A stretch of 18,601 nt of DNA from a virus (IMGVR_UViG_2711768044_000003), one strand, 5' to 3'. Numbered from the stretch's first letter, positions 2,797-5,590 are shown. Notes: a model not told the origin generated them from the sequence alone. Program-made: numbers and translations.

Positions 2797-3005
2797 TCCG
2801 CTGTCTCCCGCTCAGCTTCGATGATGGCATCTACAGCCATCACCAGAGTTCTGGCTAGGTCGTCGTAATCCTGCCATGCATCATTGCTAAAAAAATTCGT
2901 GAGCATTACCGGCGCTATCTGCACAATGAGGTGCTGGCGATAGGTCATGCCACGGGGAGTATCGATGCGCAGGCATGGGTAAGCTGAATGCTGGCATTTG
3001 CTCAT
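2793..3005 (-). CDS. Hypothetical protein (70 aa)
   Basis: ATG at 3005 overlaps the upstream gene stop as ATGA; its own stop overlaps the next start as ATGA. Part of a translationally coupled chain. Confidence 0.5.
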   Translation of the reverse strand: MSKCQHSAYPCLRIDTPRGMTYRQHLIVQIAPVMLTNFFSNDAWQDYDDLARTLVMAVDAIIEAERETAE

Positions 3006-3226
3006 CGTGTCGCCTCTCGTTGAATTGTCTTGTAGGCTCGCAACATATCGCGAGATTTTCCGGACAAAACCGTCTTCATGAAGAACATTCCACTGCGGTT
3101 TGCAACTATGCCTGGAGTGCAGAGCAACGTGGCGTCTACCACACGGTTATGTTTACGGAACTCAAATACTGTACTGGTGATAACGATGTTCGCTACGGTG
3201 CCATAGTCCTGATATTCGATTTTCAT
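3002..3226 (-). CDS. Hypothetical protein (74 aa)
   Basis: ATG at 3226 forms an ATGA overlap with the stop of the clamp-like gene. Confidence 0.5.
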   Translation of the reverse strand: MKIEYQDYGTVANIVITSTVFEFRKHNRVVDATLLCTPGIVANRSGMFFMKTVLSGKSRDMLRAYKTIQREATR

Positions 3227-3789
3227 GCCAGATGCTCCTCAATAATTTTGAAAGCATCATCACGGCATGGCATCACGACGAACTCAGGATTACCGTATGC
3301 AGTGTTGATCACTGGATCGAACTGAATGCGAACCGCTCCAGCCTCACCGGAAGGTCGTAACTGGATGGGAATAAACTTCCGCTCGCGACCAAACATCTTT
3401 TCCGGATAGCTGAGGTATTCAGTCTGGATAACCGGATTGATACTGAAATCCACTTTTTTCGGGATGATGCGTTCCATATCAGGAAAACGACCATCAACAA
3501 GTTTGATGCCAGTGATCGAGATTCGACGCTCGAACGTGTCGCGGTGAATGGCAAAGGCTTCTTTGTTGAATACCAGTTCAGTGGTTTCCGCTTTCGCCGG
3601 AACCGGTCCTTCAAACTGGACGATGATGTTTTTCTTCGTCCGGATGCCGTGCTCCATGCGCAGTGCTACATGCCCGTTAGTTGACTCGATATATTTCGGA
3701 GTGATGTGCACACCATTCAGGTAGTAACGGACATCATTTTTTGCAGCGCATACCAGAGCTGCGCGAATGAGTTTTGACTGGATGATCAT
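3223..3789 (-). CDS. Truncated DNA polymerase III beta sliding-clamp (DnaN) homologue
   Basis: 188-aa ORF. Three segments match recalled E. coli DnaN in order: NDVRYYLNGVHI...NGHVALRM vs DnaN HQDVRYYLNGMLFETEG...TDGHRLAV; KLVDGRFPDMERIIPKK vs KLVDGRFPDYRRVLPK; FVVMPCR vs YVVMPMRL at the C-terminus. Covers roughly the C-terminal two-thirds of the clamp with deletions. Confidence 0.7.
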   Translation of the reverse strand: MIIQSKLIRAALVCAAKNDVRYYLNGVHITPKYIESTNGHVALRMEHGIRTKKNIIVQFEGPVPAKAETTELVFNKEAFAIHRDTFERRISITGIKLVDGRFPDMERIIPKKVDFSINPVIQTEYLSYPEKMFGRERKFIPIQLRPSGEAGAVRIQFDPVINTAYGNPEFVVMPCRDDAFKIIEEHLA

Positions 3790-4535
3790 GCTTTATTCTC
3801 CCATCCGATTACCTGGAAAAGCCCCATCTTCGGGTGATACCAGCGTGTGCCGCGCGGTTTAGCTTCTGACATCATCTGGCGGAATGCGGCCATAAACGGC
3901 TCCAGTTCTACGATAGCCCTGCGTGACAAAAGCCCGTCCGTAGTCATAAATTCGTGTGTGTCGGTAGGGATGTGGTAGGCGTTGACCAGGTTCCGACACT
4001 TGGCGTCACTCATTCCGCTTTTTGCTACCACCTGGCGGTAACCGACATATCCGGCGCGCATGGTCCCGCGTTTGATGTTCTCCACAGCTTCGGTGACCGT
4101 TTCGATCTTCTTTTCAACATGATTCAGGCGCTTCTGCTGGCGAACGGCATCGGCGGCCATTGCGGCGATCATCTCGATTTCAGTAAGAGGTGCGCGAGTG
4201 CGGAAGTAGCTGTTAACCAGCTCGCGCTGAACCTGCCAGGCCAGATCGTCGGTGAAGGATTTCACCAACATCAAATAACCGGATTCGACCAGTACAATTC
4301 CTGCTGCTGCAAATTTTGAGAAAGTACCGTCAGGGAGGTGTCGACGAATTTCGTCGGAACCTAATTCGAAGTAGTCTTCCCCTTCAATAAGACGAGATTT
4401 GTTTTCGCGGAAATTGCGTCCCGCTGTTCCGTCTGGGCGTTGGTGCACTTCATCAATCATCGCCAGCGTCACAACACGCTGACCGCGATATTCGACTGCC
4501 GGAAGCTGTTTGTTATTGATGGTTACTGTATTCAT
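3786..4535 (-). CDS. Phage antirepressor/regulatory-like protein (tentative)
   Basis: 249-aa ORF, ATG at 4535 preceded by GGAG. N-terminal segment (AVEYRGQRVVTLAMIDEVHQRPDG...EGEDYFEL) resembles N-terminal DNA-binding domains of phage antirepressor families (ORF6N/KilA-N type). Domain assignment is from memory only. Confidence 0.5.
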   Translation of the reverse strand: MNTVTINNKQLPAVEYRGQRVVTLAMIDEVHQRPDGTAGRNFRENKSRLIEGEDYFELGSDEIRRHLPDGTFSKFAAAGIVLVESGYLMLVKSFTDDLAWQVQRELVNSYFRTRAPLTEIEMIAAMAADAVRQQKRLNHVEKKIETVTEAVENIKRGTMRAGYVGYRQVVAKSGMSDAKCRNLVNAYHIPTDTHEFMTTDGLLSRRAIVELEPFMAAFRQMMSEAKPRGTRWYHPKMGLFQVIGWENKA

Positions 4536-4577: not shown

Positions 4578-5405
4578 TTACTTAACCTGAATAAATGGTG
4601 TGTTGGCACCGCTGGTCATGTATTGCGGCAGTGTACCGTTCCACTTGTTGATGGCTTCCAGCTCCATAACGTTTGGGTTCTGGCGCAGTGCTTCGCCGCG
4701 TAAACGAATGGCGTCGGATTCGGCCTGGGCTTTTGTGCGAATCGCATCAGCCTGTCCGGCAGCTTCCGCGCGCAACATATTGGCCTCTGCCTCGCGTTGC
4801 TTGACTTCCTGCTCGCGTTGCAGGGTTTTCTGGTTTGCCGTGACTTTGGCGTTAATGCTGTCAATAACGGTTGGCGGGTATTCCGGCTTACCTACATAAG
4901 AGAGACTCATCACCTGAATACCCACAGGCCCCATCTCTGCCTGAATTTCTTTCAGGGAGTTTTCCAGTAACTCGCCCTTGCCACCATCGATGAATTTGTC
5001 AGTACTCATTTGGCTGGCGAGACGATTGAGGGCGTCAGCAATTTTCTGGCGCAGGTCAGTGTCGGTAATGTCATCCACGCCTTTGCGGTAGGTCTGAAAA
5101 ACCGTGGTTACTTTGGTCGGGTCTACTTTGTAGGCCACGCCGATGTGATAGCCGATGGTTGTACCGTCACTCATCTGGAAGCTGAATGGCTCATCGTAGG
5201 TCTTCATTTGTTTGAAGGTCGGGAAGATGTAAACCTCAGTGTTCCATCCCGTCCAGTAGCGCCCAACACCGACCACCTCTCCGACGCCTTTATCGTCGCC
5301 CAGTTTGTTTACTTTGATGCCCACATTACCAGGCTCAACGCGATCGCAACCGACAAGTCCGGTGGTCAGCAGAACAAGGGCTAAAGCAGGAATAATTTTT
5401 TTCAT
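4578..5405 (-). CDS. SPFH (band-7/prohibitin-like) lipoprotein, predicted inner-membrane anchored
   Basis: 275-aa ORF. Signal peptide with lipobox LVGC followed by Asp at +2 (CDRV). Central region and an Ala/Glu/Arg-rich coiled-coil tail (REQEVKQREAEANMLRAEAAGQADAIRTKAQAESDAIRLRGEALRQNP..LEL..I) are typical of SPFH/HflKC/prohibitin family proteins. ATG at 5405 overlaps the upstream stop (ATGA). Confidence 0.8.
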   Translation of the reverse strand: MKKIIPALALVLLTTGLVGCDRVEPGNVGIKVNKLGDDKGVGEVVGVGRYWTGWNTEVYIFPTFKQMKTYDEPFSFQMSDGTTIGYHIGVAYKVDPTKVTTVFQTYRKGVDDITDTDLRQKIADALNRLASQMSTDKFIDGGKGELLENSLKEIQAEMGPVGIQVMSLSYVGKPEYPPTVIDSINAKVTANQKTLQREQEVKQREAEANMLRAEAAGQADAIRTKAQAESDAIRLRGEALRQNPNVMELEAINKWNGTLPQYMTSGANTPFIQVK

Positions 5406-5590
5406 CTTTTATCCTTAGAAAAAGAAAGACCCTTATAAATGGCATAAATGCAGGGCGGGGTCAGACACGCCAGAGCAAAGCCAGAAATCACTGCTACCGT
5501 ATCCTTCATTGATATGAGGGTCGGAACGATTAATCCGTAAATACATGCGATAATTACCAGTGATATAACTATTCTGAAATAAATGTTCAT
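5402..5590 (-). CDS. Small two-helix membrane protein coupled to the SPFH lipoprotein
   Basis: 62-aa ORF, ATG at 5590 preceded by AGGAGG. Two hydrophobic stretches (IVISLVIIACIYGLIVPTLI and VAVISGFALACLTPPCIYAIY). Stop overlaps the SPFH start. Confidence 0.7.
   Translation of the reverse strand: MNIYFRIVISLVIIACIYGLIVPTLISMKDTVAVISGFALACLTPPCIYAIYKGLSFSKDKR

What the first reader, a model, noticed from the sequence alone, without database searches (positions are those of the whole stretch)
3223..3789. Prophage-encoded truncated beta sliding clamp (DnaN domains II-III)
The 188-aa protein carries three DnaN signature segments in the correct order, including the C-terminal FVVMP motif, but lacks domain I and is shorter than the corresponding host region. 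A clamp fragment cannot form a normal head-to-tail dimer ring. It could titrate clamp-binding proteins, form mixed or alternative rings, or redirect host replication or repair during early lytic development. A shorter internal-start form of the host clamp has been described in E. coli, which makes a phage copy of a similar fragment intriguing.
Basis: partly seen in the sequence, partly recalled or inferred. Interest (0 to 1): 0.65.

Follow-up and report, generated by a model that had tools for sequence, protein, structure and literature searches.

The report
Phage mini beta-clamp keeping only the binding pocket
A prophage gene encodes a 188-residue cut-down relative of the bacterial DNA sliding clamp that keeps the pocket where polymerases and repair proteins dock but has lost every part needed to close a ring; it belongs to a widespread phage family that databases already annotate and nobody appears to have studied.

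Summary

The interpretation needs correction. The protein is not domains II-III. It is domain II (beta 133-253) fused to the second half of domain III only (beta 313-366). Domain I and the first half of domain III are missing, so both sides of the canonical dimer interface are gone.

All 18 residues of the clamp-binding-motif pocket have counterparts, and 12 are identical. Ten of the 18 most conserved family positions are pocket residues (p about 1e-7).

The gene is under strong purifying selection (dN/dS 0.06). It belongs to a large phage family:
- PHROG 3007, mislabelled "RusA-like".
- PGAP name "beta clamp domain-containing protein".
- Short phage polIII-beta homologues were already noted by Kazlauskas and Venclovas in 2011.

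In virulent phages the gene sits as an isolated, opposite-strand gene among structural genes, so it seems to act without a phage partner.

My best reading is a non-ring, pocket-only module that binds host proteins carrying clamp-binding motifs, as a decoy or adaptor. That function is inferred, not shown. I rate it a new member of a known but uncharacterised family, of moderate interest.

The parts
3223..3789 (-). Complete CDS of the mini beta-clamp (188 aa plus TGA stop).
   Evidence: ORF list and translation. phrog_3007 full-length match, E 4.2e-64. dN/dS median 0.063 over 459 pairs of homologous genes.
3457..3789 (-). Residues 1-111, the equivalent of DnaN domain II (beta about 133-250). It includes the pocket residues R21, L24, T37, G39, H40, P103, R107 and I108. 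The model shows no second inner helix; a loop around P64 takes its place.
   Evidence: Alignments to beta 136-256. DSSP of the AlphaFold2 model shows coil at 60-68. Family conservation table.
3442..3456 (-). Residues 112-116, a variable linker that replaces beta about 251-314 (the first half of domain III).
   Evidence: Low conservation and gaps in the family alignment. The C-terminal profile matches only beta 316-366.
3259..3441 (-). Residues 117-177, the equivalent of the second half of DnaN domain III (beta 315-366). It has a helix carrying Q122 and Y125 (= N320, Y323), three strands, and the terminal VVMPCR strand (= V360-R365).
   Evidence: hmmsearch of the C-terminal family profile against E. 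coli beta: 316-366, 21 bits, E 1.2e-8. PSSM scan z 4.9 and 6.0. DSSP elements H123-133, E142-146, E153-157, E169-172.
3226..3258 (-). Residues 178-188, a C-terminal helix found only in this enterobacterial subfamily. Most family members end right after MPxR, as DnaN does.
   Evidence: Over 80% gaps in these columns across 155 family representatives. H179-187 in the model, with pLDDT falling to about 58.
3798..3802 (-). Shine-Dalgarno-like GGGAG, 8 nt upstream of the ATG and inside the 3' end of the upstream gene.
   Evidence: Sequence read directly.
3786..4535 (-). Upstream ORF6N-domain antirepressor-like gene. Its TGA overlaps the clamp ATG (ATGA), so the two are probably translationally coupled. 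Context only, not shown to be a partner.
   Evidence: Pfam ORF6N, E 6.8e-15. phrog_1726 anti-repressor. In about 80 related prophage loci the upstream gene is a mosaic of ORF6N or Bro-N type proteins.
3002..3226 (-). Downstream orf74 (phrog_1001, unknown function). Its ATG overlaps the clamp stop (ATGA). It is the most constant neighbour in enterobacterial prophages but is absent around distant family members.
   Evidence: The structure prediction was uninformative, pLDDT 48.

Best explanation
The gene encodes a non-ring, pocket-only derivative of the bacterial beta sliding clamp. It keeps the three adjoining beta-alpha-beta-beta-beta motifs that build the hydrophobic pocket between domains II and III. 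Pol III alpha, the clamp-loader delta subunit, Pol II/IV/V, MutS/MutL and Hda insert their clamp-binding motifs (CBMs) into that pocket. Domain I and the first half of domain III are gone, and in the model one DNA-facing helix is gone too, so the canonical dimer interface is missing on both sides.

I propose that the protein is made early in lytic growth from the early-left operon. It would bind CBM-bearing host proteins off the ring, acting as a decoy that pulls competitors away from the host clamp or as an adaptor that captures a host polymerase or loader subunit.

What is shown: the homology, the fold, which parts were kept and which deleted, the conservation of the pocket, purifying selection, and the lack of any conserved phage partner. 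What is inferred: that the pocket still binds CBM peptides, which ligand it prefers, and what this does for the phage.

For: 2. Architecture: residues 1-111 match beta 136-250. Residues 117-177 match beta 315-366 and nothing else.

3. Pocket: all 18 pocket residues listed in PMC11139829 have counterparts.
- Identical (12): R21, L24, T37, G39, H40, P103, R107, Y125, V171, M173, P174, R176.
- Conservative (4): I108, Q122, C175, A42.
- Across 155 representatives at 50% identity, 10 of the 18 positions conserved at 80% or more are pocket residues (hypergeometric 1.1e-7).

4. The ring-closing residues I78/F106 and I272/L273/E298-E304 (PMC11139829) lie in the deleted parts.

5. It is a real, selected gene: dN/dS 0.063. 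About 2,900 clusters at 50% identity score E<=1e-10 against the family profile (full-length DnaN genes may be among the weaker ones); the best 150 are mostly 170-215 aa.

6. It is self-contained. In Skatevirus, Dhillonvirus, Kagunavirus and Gorganvirus it is an isolated opposite-strand gene, alone or with a few small ORFs, among head and tail genes. Distant temperate relatives sit in nin-like regions with different neighbours. The family occurs in phages with their own DNA polymerase; this prophage window shows only a helicase and a primase, and no polymerase is annotated in the first half of the Pu29 genome.

7. Precedents for phages manipulating clamp use: the lambda sRNA LPR1 (PreS) raises dnaN translation (bioRxiv 10.1101/2024.10.31.621285), and Mu MuC engages the clamp through CBMs (PMC12867686).
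Against: - No binding data exist, and I could not run complex or oligomer predictions or inspect model coordinates.
- Pocket residues are also among the most conserved positions of DnaN in general. I had no DnaN family alignment as a control, so part of the enrichment could reflect structural constraint.
- Two subsite I residues differ (R176 to V41, L177 to A42). Some pocket positions are only moderately conserved family-wide (R107 51%, V171 36%).
- An indiscriminate decoy would also trap Pol III alpha and delta, which lambdoid phages need, so some specificity must be assumed.
- The family is basic (median pI 8.3, this protein 9.05, against 5.25 for beta), which could point to nucleic-acid binding instead.
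- No CBM-bearing phage partner was found. A regex scan of the window's proteins gave 3 matches against about 2.8 expected.
Confidence: 0.5

Rival explanations
1. It is a loader-independent DNA tether in the manner of herpesvirus UL42 or UL44. The protein binds DNA directly through a basic surface without encircling it, and holds a CBM-bearing polymerase (host Pol III or a phage polymerase) through the retained pocket, raising processivity on phage DNA.
Against: The gene is not linked to polymerase or replication genes in any context examined. In the model one of the DNA-facing helices of domain II is lost. Basic charge may only complement the acidic flanks of CBM ligands (PMC11139829). No DNA-binding test was possible.
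Confidence: 0.15
2. It is a true sliding clamp that oligomerises into a closed ring, for example through symmetric pairing of the orphan half-domains (a dimer giving a three-domain arc, a tetramer giving a six-domain ring). It would serve as a processivity factor, much as the two-domain E. coli beta* was reported to do.
For: Database labels say "DNA polymerase III beta subunit" or "processivity factor". Four copies of 1.5 domains make six domains. The half-domain presumably exposes the surface that normally packs against its missing partner motif (inference). The beta* precedent is from my own recollection of Skaliter, Paz-Elizur and Livneh 1996; I could not retrieve it.
Against: Both canonical interface halves are deleted (PMC11139829). 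The model lacks one inner helix. No clamp loader and no consistent polymerase co-occur. The TIGR00663 score of 24 bits is far below the 137.65 cut-off. In virulent phages the gene lies among structural genes as an isolated unit, not in replication modules.
Confidence: 0.12
3. It is a poison of the host clamp system. As a monomeric pocket module it traps the clamp-loader delta subunit, which binds monomeric beta about 50-fold more tightly than the dimer, or it associates with host beta. Either way it blocks clamp loading or unloading and shuts off host replication.
Against: This is really a special case of the main explanation. Lambdoid phages depend on host clamp loading themselves. The canonical surfaces for binding host beta are deleted. 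No toxicity data exist.
Confidence: 0.1
4. It is a decaying remnant of a captured dnaN gene with no function, or a RusA-like Holliday junction resolvase as PHROG 3007 and many GenBank records say.
For: The PHROG 3007 description and copied GenBank product names. Fels-1 carries only a partial copy, residues 75-188.
Against: dN/dS is 0.063 and 64 distinct intact alleles were recovered. Length is conserved across thousands of clusters. Every strong structural match is a sliding clamp and no resolvase appears. No RusA family hit was found in Pfam or NCBIfam.
Confidence: 0.02

Closest known systems
Bacterial beta sliding clamp (DnaN, Pol III beta; TIGR00663; Pfam PF00712/PF02767/PF02768)
   Same: Homologous sequence and the same beta-alpha-beta-beta-beta fold. 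The signature motifs DVRYYLNG, TxGH, DGRFPD, IGFNxxY and VVMPxR are present. The CBM pocket residues are largely identical. The C-terminus falls at the same point.
   Different: It has 188 aa against 366. It lacks domain I and the first half of domain III, so the canonical dimer interface is absent. The model shows no second inner helix in domain II. It is basic rather than acidic. It is 28% identical to host beta. It scores below the TIGR00663 and PF02767 thresholds and does not match PF02768.
Short phage polIII-beta homologues (PHROG 3007; PGAP "beta clamp domain-containing protein"; Kazlauskas and Venclovas 2011, PMC3201878)
   Same: This gene is a full-length member (phrog_3007 E 4e-64). 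It has the same length class, the same motifs and the same phage or prophage location.
   Different: Nothing essential. This enterobacterial prophage subfamily adds a short C-terminal helix. [quoted passage not shown]
E. coli beta* (UV-inducible internal-start product of dnaN; from my own knowledge, not retrieved here)
   Same: A clamp derivative without domain I.
   Different: beta* is translated from dnaN itself and keeps a complete domain III. This protein comes from a separate, distantly related gene and lacks half of domain III, including the interface residues.
Herpesvirus non-ring processivity factors (UL42, UL44, PF-8, BMRF1)
   Different: No detectable sequence relationship. The herpesvirus proteins have two complete domains and a documented DNA-binding face, and they are genetically tied to their polymerase. 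None of this is shown here.
Phage factors that act on the host clamp (Mu MuC, PMC12867686; lambda LPR1/PreS sRNA, bioRxiv 10.1101/2024.10.31.621285; Gp168 in PDB 7evp)
   Same: They show that phages tune access to or supply of the beta clamp during lytic growth.
   Different: Those factors bind or regulate the host clamp. This protein is itself a clamp derivative and would act from the other side, by mimicking the clamp's docking site.

Membership tests
Beta sliding clamp DnaN (TIGR00663 equivalog) | Whole-protein score above the curated cut-off (137.65 bits). | tested here: not met
   24.3 bits, E 1.4e-5, covering residues 6-114 only.
Beta sliding clamp DnaN | Three-domain architecture (PF00712 N-terminal, PF02767 central, PF02768 C-terminal). 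| tested here: not met
   Only PF02767 matches, at 18.9 bits, below the gathering score of 27. Of 54 distant family members, 15 hit PF02767 and none hits PF00712 or PF02768.
Beta sliding clamp DnaN | Clamp fold made of repeated beta-alpha-beta-beta-beta motifs. | tested here: met
Beta sliding clamp DnaN | Head-to-tail dimer interface (I78, F106 and basic residues of domain I; I272, L273 and E298-E304 of domain III). | tested here: not met
   The protein matches beta 136-250 and 315-366 only. Both interface regions fall in the missing parts. The residue list is from PMC11139829.
Beta sliding clamp DnaN | Conserved clamp-binding-motif pocket (subsites I and II). | tested here: met
   12 of 18 residues are identical and 4 conservative. 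Ten of the 18 most conserved family positions are pocket residues, p 1.1e-7. This is sequence-level evidence only; binding was not tested.
Beta sliding clamp DnaN | Forms a closed ring around DNA and needs a clamp loader. | not testable with these tools
Short phage polIII-beta homologues (PHROG 3007) | Full-length match to the family profile. | tested here: met
   E 4.2e-64; residues 1-179 against profile positions 3-188 of 190.
Short phage polIII-beta homologues (PHROG 3007) | Length about 170-215 aa, ending at the DnaN-type MPxR C-terminus, encoded in phages or prophages. | tested here: met
   Family median length 190 aa; M173, P174 and R176 conserved at 96, 92 and 82%. 256 phage records carry a homologue. 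Prophage context shown.
RusA-like Holliday junction resolvase (the label on PHROG 3007) | RusA fold or sequence family. | tested here: not met
   No RusA hit in Pfam or NCBIfam. The structural matches are clamps only.
E. coli beta* type internal-start clamp | In-frame product of dnaN containing complete domains II and III. | tested here: not met
   It is a separate prophage gene, 28% identical to beta over domain II, and lacks beta 254-314.
Non-ring clamp-fold processivity factors (UL42/UL44 type) | Direct DNA binding through a basic face, plus a dedicated polymerase partner. | tested here: inconclusive
   The family is basic, median pI 8.27. There is no linkage to polymerase genes. DNA binding could not be tested.

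The most novel reading that the evidence does not exclude
The family is a widespread, previously unrecognised class of phage host-takeover factor: a free-standing mimic of the clamp's docking site. It would either soak up selected CBM-bearing host proteins (translesion polymerases, MutS/L, Hda, the delta subunit) or tether a polymerase to phage DNA without a ring or loader. It might work as a symmetric dimer formed through the orphan half-domain.
Probability: 0.4. Interest if true: 0.7.

Novelty: new member of a known kind. Interest (0 to 1): 0.45.

Why it matters
The beta clamp's docking pocket is the hub through which bacterial replication, repair, mutagenesis and initiation control are coordinated, and it is also an antibiotic target. 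Evolution has pared this phage protein down to little more than that pocket. If it does bind clamp-binding motifs, three things follow:
- It would reveal a new way for phages to rewire host DNA metabolism.
- It would provide a small, soluble, non-ring reagent for studying or blocking CBM interactions.
- It would define experimentally the minimal structural unit that supports the pocket.

The work also corrects a wrong label that has spread through many phage genome records ("RusA-like Holliday junction resolvase"). It warns against reading "DNA polymerase III beta subunit" in these phages as a working sliding clamp.

Tried and rejected
- Literature: seven full-text searches for any study of short phage clamp homologues. 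Only the one-sentence note in PMC3201878 turned up, and its supplement is not held. The beta* papers could not be retrieved.
- Defence-system models (PADLOC): no hit for the clamp gene or for seven of eight other window genes scanned. orf285 gave one weak PbeC match, E 0.0036.
- Phage partner carrying a clamp-binding motif: a regex scan of 23 window proteins gave 3 matches against about 2.8 expected. A shared C-terminal HPxxGxF in upstream antirepressor-like proteins looked suggestive. It is the end of a shuffled C-terminal domain also found on Bro-N proteins two genes away, so it is not a CBM.
A homologue search listed only sequences at 89% identity or more among its best 120 of 588 hits. The AlphaFold2 model had pLDDT 48 and is uninterpretable.
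- Natural fusion proteins as stand-ins for a complex: the longer homologues P0009 and P0036 are frameshift or mis-start artefacts, not informative fusions.
I used annotated phage records and contig look-ups instead.
- The afdb50 fold library was not available.
- My first mapping placed the C-terminal part on the first half of domain III, following HMMER's contiguous alignment. I rejected that after the dedicated C-terminal profile and the PSSM scans.

Full report
**1. The observation**

The coordinates 3223-3789 hold one ORF of 188 codons plus a stop codon, on the minus strand. The finding did not state the strand.
- The ORF starts with ATG, with a GGGAG Shine-Dalgarno-like element 8 nt upstream.
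- Its start overlaps the stop of the upstream gene (ATGA), and its own stop overlaps the start of the next gene (ATGA).
Family columns 14-27, 95-111 and 166-177 find their unique best gapless matches at E. coli beta 145-158, 234-250 and 355-366, with z = 7.3, 7.4 and 6.0.
- Two further segments match beta 169-179 (TDGH) and 315-333 (IGFNxxY), both z 4.9.

Residues 257-366 are identical, and residues 136-256 agree with the printed PDB alignments.

**2. Homology and fold**

Single-sequence searches are weak but consistent:
- Pfam DNA_pol3_beta_2: E 0.0019, below the gathering score.
- TIGR00663: 1.4e-5.
- phmmer against PDB: about 1e-4 to many beta clamps.
- BLASTP to E. coli beta: 28% identity over residues 6-114, E 1e-08 pairwise.

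**3. What was kept and what was lost**

Residues 1-111 correspond to domain II, beta about 133-250. HMMER's contiguous alignment at first suggested that the rest continued into the first half of domain III. A profile built from family columns 112-178 alone matches only beta 316-366 (21 bits, E 1.2e-8). The PSSM scan agrees.

The protein is therefore domain II fused by a short variable linker to the second beta-alpha-beta-beta-beta motif of domain III. It ends where DnaN ends. An 11-residue helix follows in this enterobacterial subfamily only.

Missing parts:
- Domain I.
- Beta about 251-314, the first half of domain III.
- In the model, the second inner helix of domain II, where residues 60-68 are coil around the 95%-conserved P64.

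According to the 2024 review PMC11139829, the ring-closing dimer interface is made by I78, F106 and basic residues of domain I packing against I272, L273 and E298-E304 of domain III. Both sides lie in the deleted parts.

The interface residues show that, within the ring, the first half of domain III faces the neighbouring protomer. From that I infer that the second half of domain III lies next to domain II. The retained pieces would then form one contiguous arc of three motifs centred on the domain II/III junction.

**4. The pocket**

The same review lists 18 residues forming the two subsites of the clamp-binding-motif pocket. All 18 have counterparts here.

| Class | Residue in beta = residue in this protein |
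|---|---|
| Identical (12) | R152=R21, L155=L24, T172=T37, G174=G39, H175=H40, P242=P103, R246=R107, Y323=Y125, V360=V171, M362=M173, P363=P174, R365=R176 |
| Conservative (4) | V247=I108, N320=Q122 (N in 66% of the family), M364=C175, L177=A42 |
| Changed (2) | R176=V41, V344=A150 (V344 is variable in true clamps too) |

In an alignment of 155 diverse family representatives, 18 positions are conserved at 80% or more, and 10 of them are pocket residues (hypergeometric 1.1e-7).

One caveat applies. Pocket residues are also highly conserved in DnaN generally, and I had no DnaN alignment with which to separate functional from structural constraint.

**5. The family**

- The protein is a full-length member of PHROG 3007 (E 4e-64). 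That family's description, "RusA-like Holliday junction resolvase", has no support and has been copied into many GenBank records.
- An exhaustive profile search found 2,947 clusters at 50% identity with E<=1e-10. Full-length DnaN genes may be among the weaker of these. The best 150 are mostly 170-215 aa.
- tblastn found homologues in 256 phage records from Salmonella, Escherichia, Klebsiella, Vibrio, Acinetobacter, Proteus, Burkholderia and other hosts. They are mostly labelled "DNA polymerase III beta subunit".
- BFVD holds many predicted viral structures of the same size and fold.
- PGAP now names the 78%-identical E. coli version "beta clamp domain-containing protein".
- I found no experimental study.
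- Purifying selection is strong. Median dN/dS is 0.063, with a maximum of 0.30, over 459 pairs drawn from 64 distinct alleles.

**6. Genomic context**

The window is a lambdoid prophage. Its genes include an integrase, DUF4222 and DUF551 proteins, an SPFH protein, an HTH protein, a cI-like S24 repressor, Cro-like and cII-like genes, an SF2 helicase, a toprim primase, a Q antiterminator, a DNA methylase and a TolA-like protein. The clamp gene lies in the early-left operon.

In 80 related IMG/VR prophage loci the gene is preceded, nearly always with an ATGA overlap, by a mosaic set of ORF6N or Bro-N antirepressor-like genes. It is usually followed by orf74, phrog_1001.

More distant relatives have different neighbours:
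- In Pantoea the upstream gene is a small acidic ORF and a KilA-N gene follows.
- In ~42-kb phages with DnaB-type helicases the gene sits in nin-like regions.

In four genera of virulent siphoviruses (Skatevirus, Dhillonvirus, Kagunavirus, Gorganvirus) the gene is an isolated opposite-strand gene, alone or with a few small ORFs, inserted among head or tail genes. In the fBC-Eco01 (Kagunavirus) record the annotators also predicted a terminator at its 3' end.

The Dhillonvirus encodes its own DNA polymerase. This prophage window shows only a helicase and a primase.

So there is no conserved phage partner and no tie to a replication module. The protein most likely works alone on host components.

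**7. Mechanism**

The best-supported reading is a non-ring docking-site module that binds proteins carrying clamp-binding motifs, as a decoy or an adaptor. I give this 0.5.

Phages are known to adjust clamp supply and use. The lambda sRNA LPR1 (PreS) enhances dnaN translation, and Mu MuC uses CBMs to recruit the clamp for late transcription.

The family's basic character (pI 9.05 for this protein, median 8.27 for the family, 5.25 for beta) keeps a UL42-like DNA-tether variant alive (0.15).

The remaining rivals:
- A novel oligomeric ring: 0.12.
- A delta or beta poison: 0.10.
- A non-functional remnant, or a resolvase as the PHROG label says: 0.02 together. The data contradict both.

**8. Limits**

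- I could not run multimer predictions or inspect model coordinates.
- The afdb50 fold library was not available.
- The structure prediction for orf74 failed (pLDDT 48).

**9. Verdict**

The gene is a new member of a known but uncharacterised phage family. The new contribution is the precise anatomy: domain II plus the second half of domain III, which retains the entire docking pocket and deletes both halves of the ring interface. That turns a vague "truncated clamp" label into a specific, testable mechanism.

Noticed in passing
window 3002-3226 (minus strand): orf74 (phrog_1001, unknown function) is translationally coupled to the clamp gene by an ATGA overlap. It is the most constant downstream neighbour in enterobacterial prophages (51-99% identity, also in Providencia and Limnobaculum) but is absent near distant family members. 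The AlphaFold2 model was uninformative (pLDDT 48).
   Followed up: partly
window 3786-4535 (minus strand) and loci L003-L082, L094-L096: The upstream antirepressor-like gene is a domain-shuffling mosaic. ORF6N or Bro-N N-terminal domains are combined with at least four different C-terminal regions. Two of these, plus a small 84-aa protein, end in a shared (W/F)xHPxxGxF motif just before the clamp start codon.
   Followed up: partly
PHROG 3007 and phage GenBank records: The PHROG 3007 description "RusA-like Holliday junction resolvase" appears to be wrong. It has been copied into many phage records (for example NC_054654, NC_054649, NC_013600), while sister records call the same protein "DNA polymerase III beta subunit".
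   Followed up: yes
window 4578-5590 (minus strand): The early-left operon also carries an SPFH/Band 7 protein with a lipoprotein-like N-terminus (275 aa), coupled to a 62-aa membrane protein (phrog_1130, category "moron/host takeover"). The pair travels together in many related prophages. Its function is unknown; it could be an exclusion or membrane-remodelling module.
   Followed up: no
window 17280-17708 (plus strand): A prophage-encoded 142-aa protein with a TolA C-terminal domain (Pfam E 1.8e-23). It might mimic or interfere with the host Tol system, for example to exclude other phages or colicins.
   Followed up: no
window 9792-13277 (plus strand): The replication module consists of an SF2 (ResIII/DEAD) helicase, a zinc-ribbon/toprim primase and a 285-aa protein of unknown function (phrog_6204). 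No DNA polymerase, clamp loader or lambda O/P-type initiator is seen in the window.
   Followed up: no
Salmonella phage Fels-1, NC_010391.1 2523-2864 (H21): Fels-1 carries only the C-terminal 61% of the gene (residues 75-188, 82% identity). This copy looks truncated or decayed.
   Followed up: no
L001, L090, L098, L100 (Skatevirus, Dhillonvirus, Kagunavirus, Gorganvirus): In four genera of virulent siphoviruses the mini-clamp gene is an isolated opposite-strand gene, alone or with a few small ORFs, between head or tail genes. This is a moron-like arrangement, unusual for something annotated as a replication protein.
   Followed up: partly
window 7949-8695 (minus strand), cI-like repressor, residues 5-9: The N-terminus reads QMSML, close to the MutS clamp-binding motif QMSLL. 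The total number of regex matches in the window was at chance level, so this is probably coincidence.
   Followed up: partly
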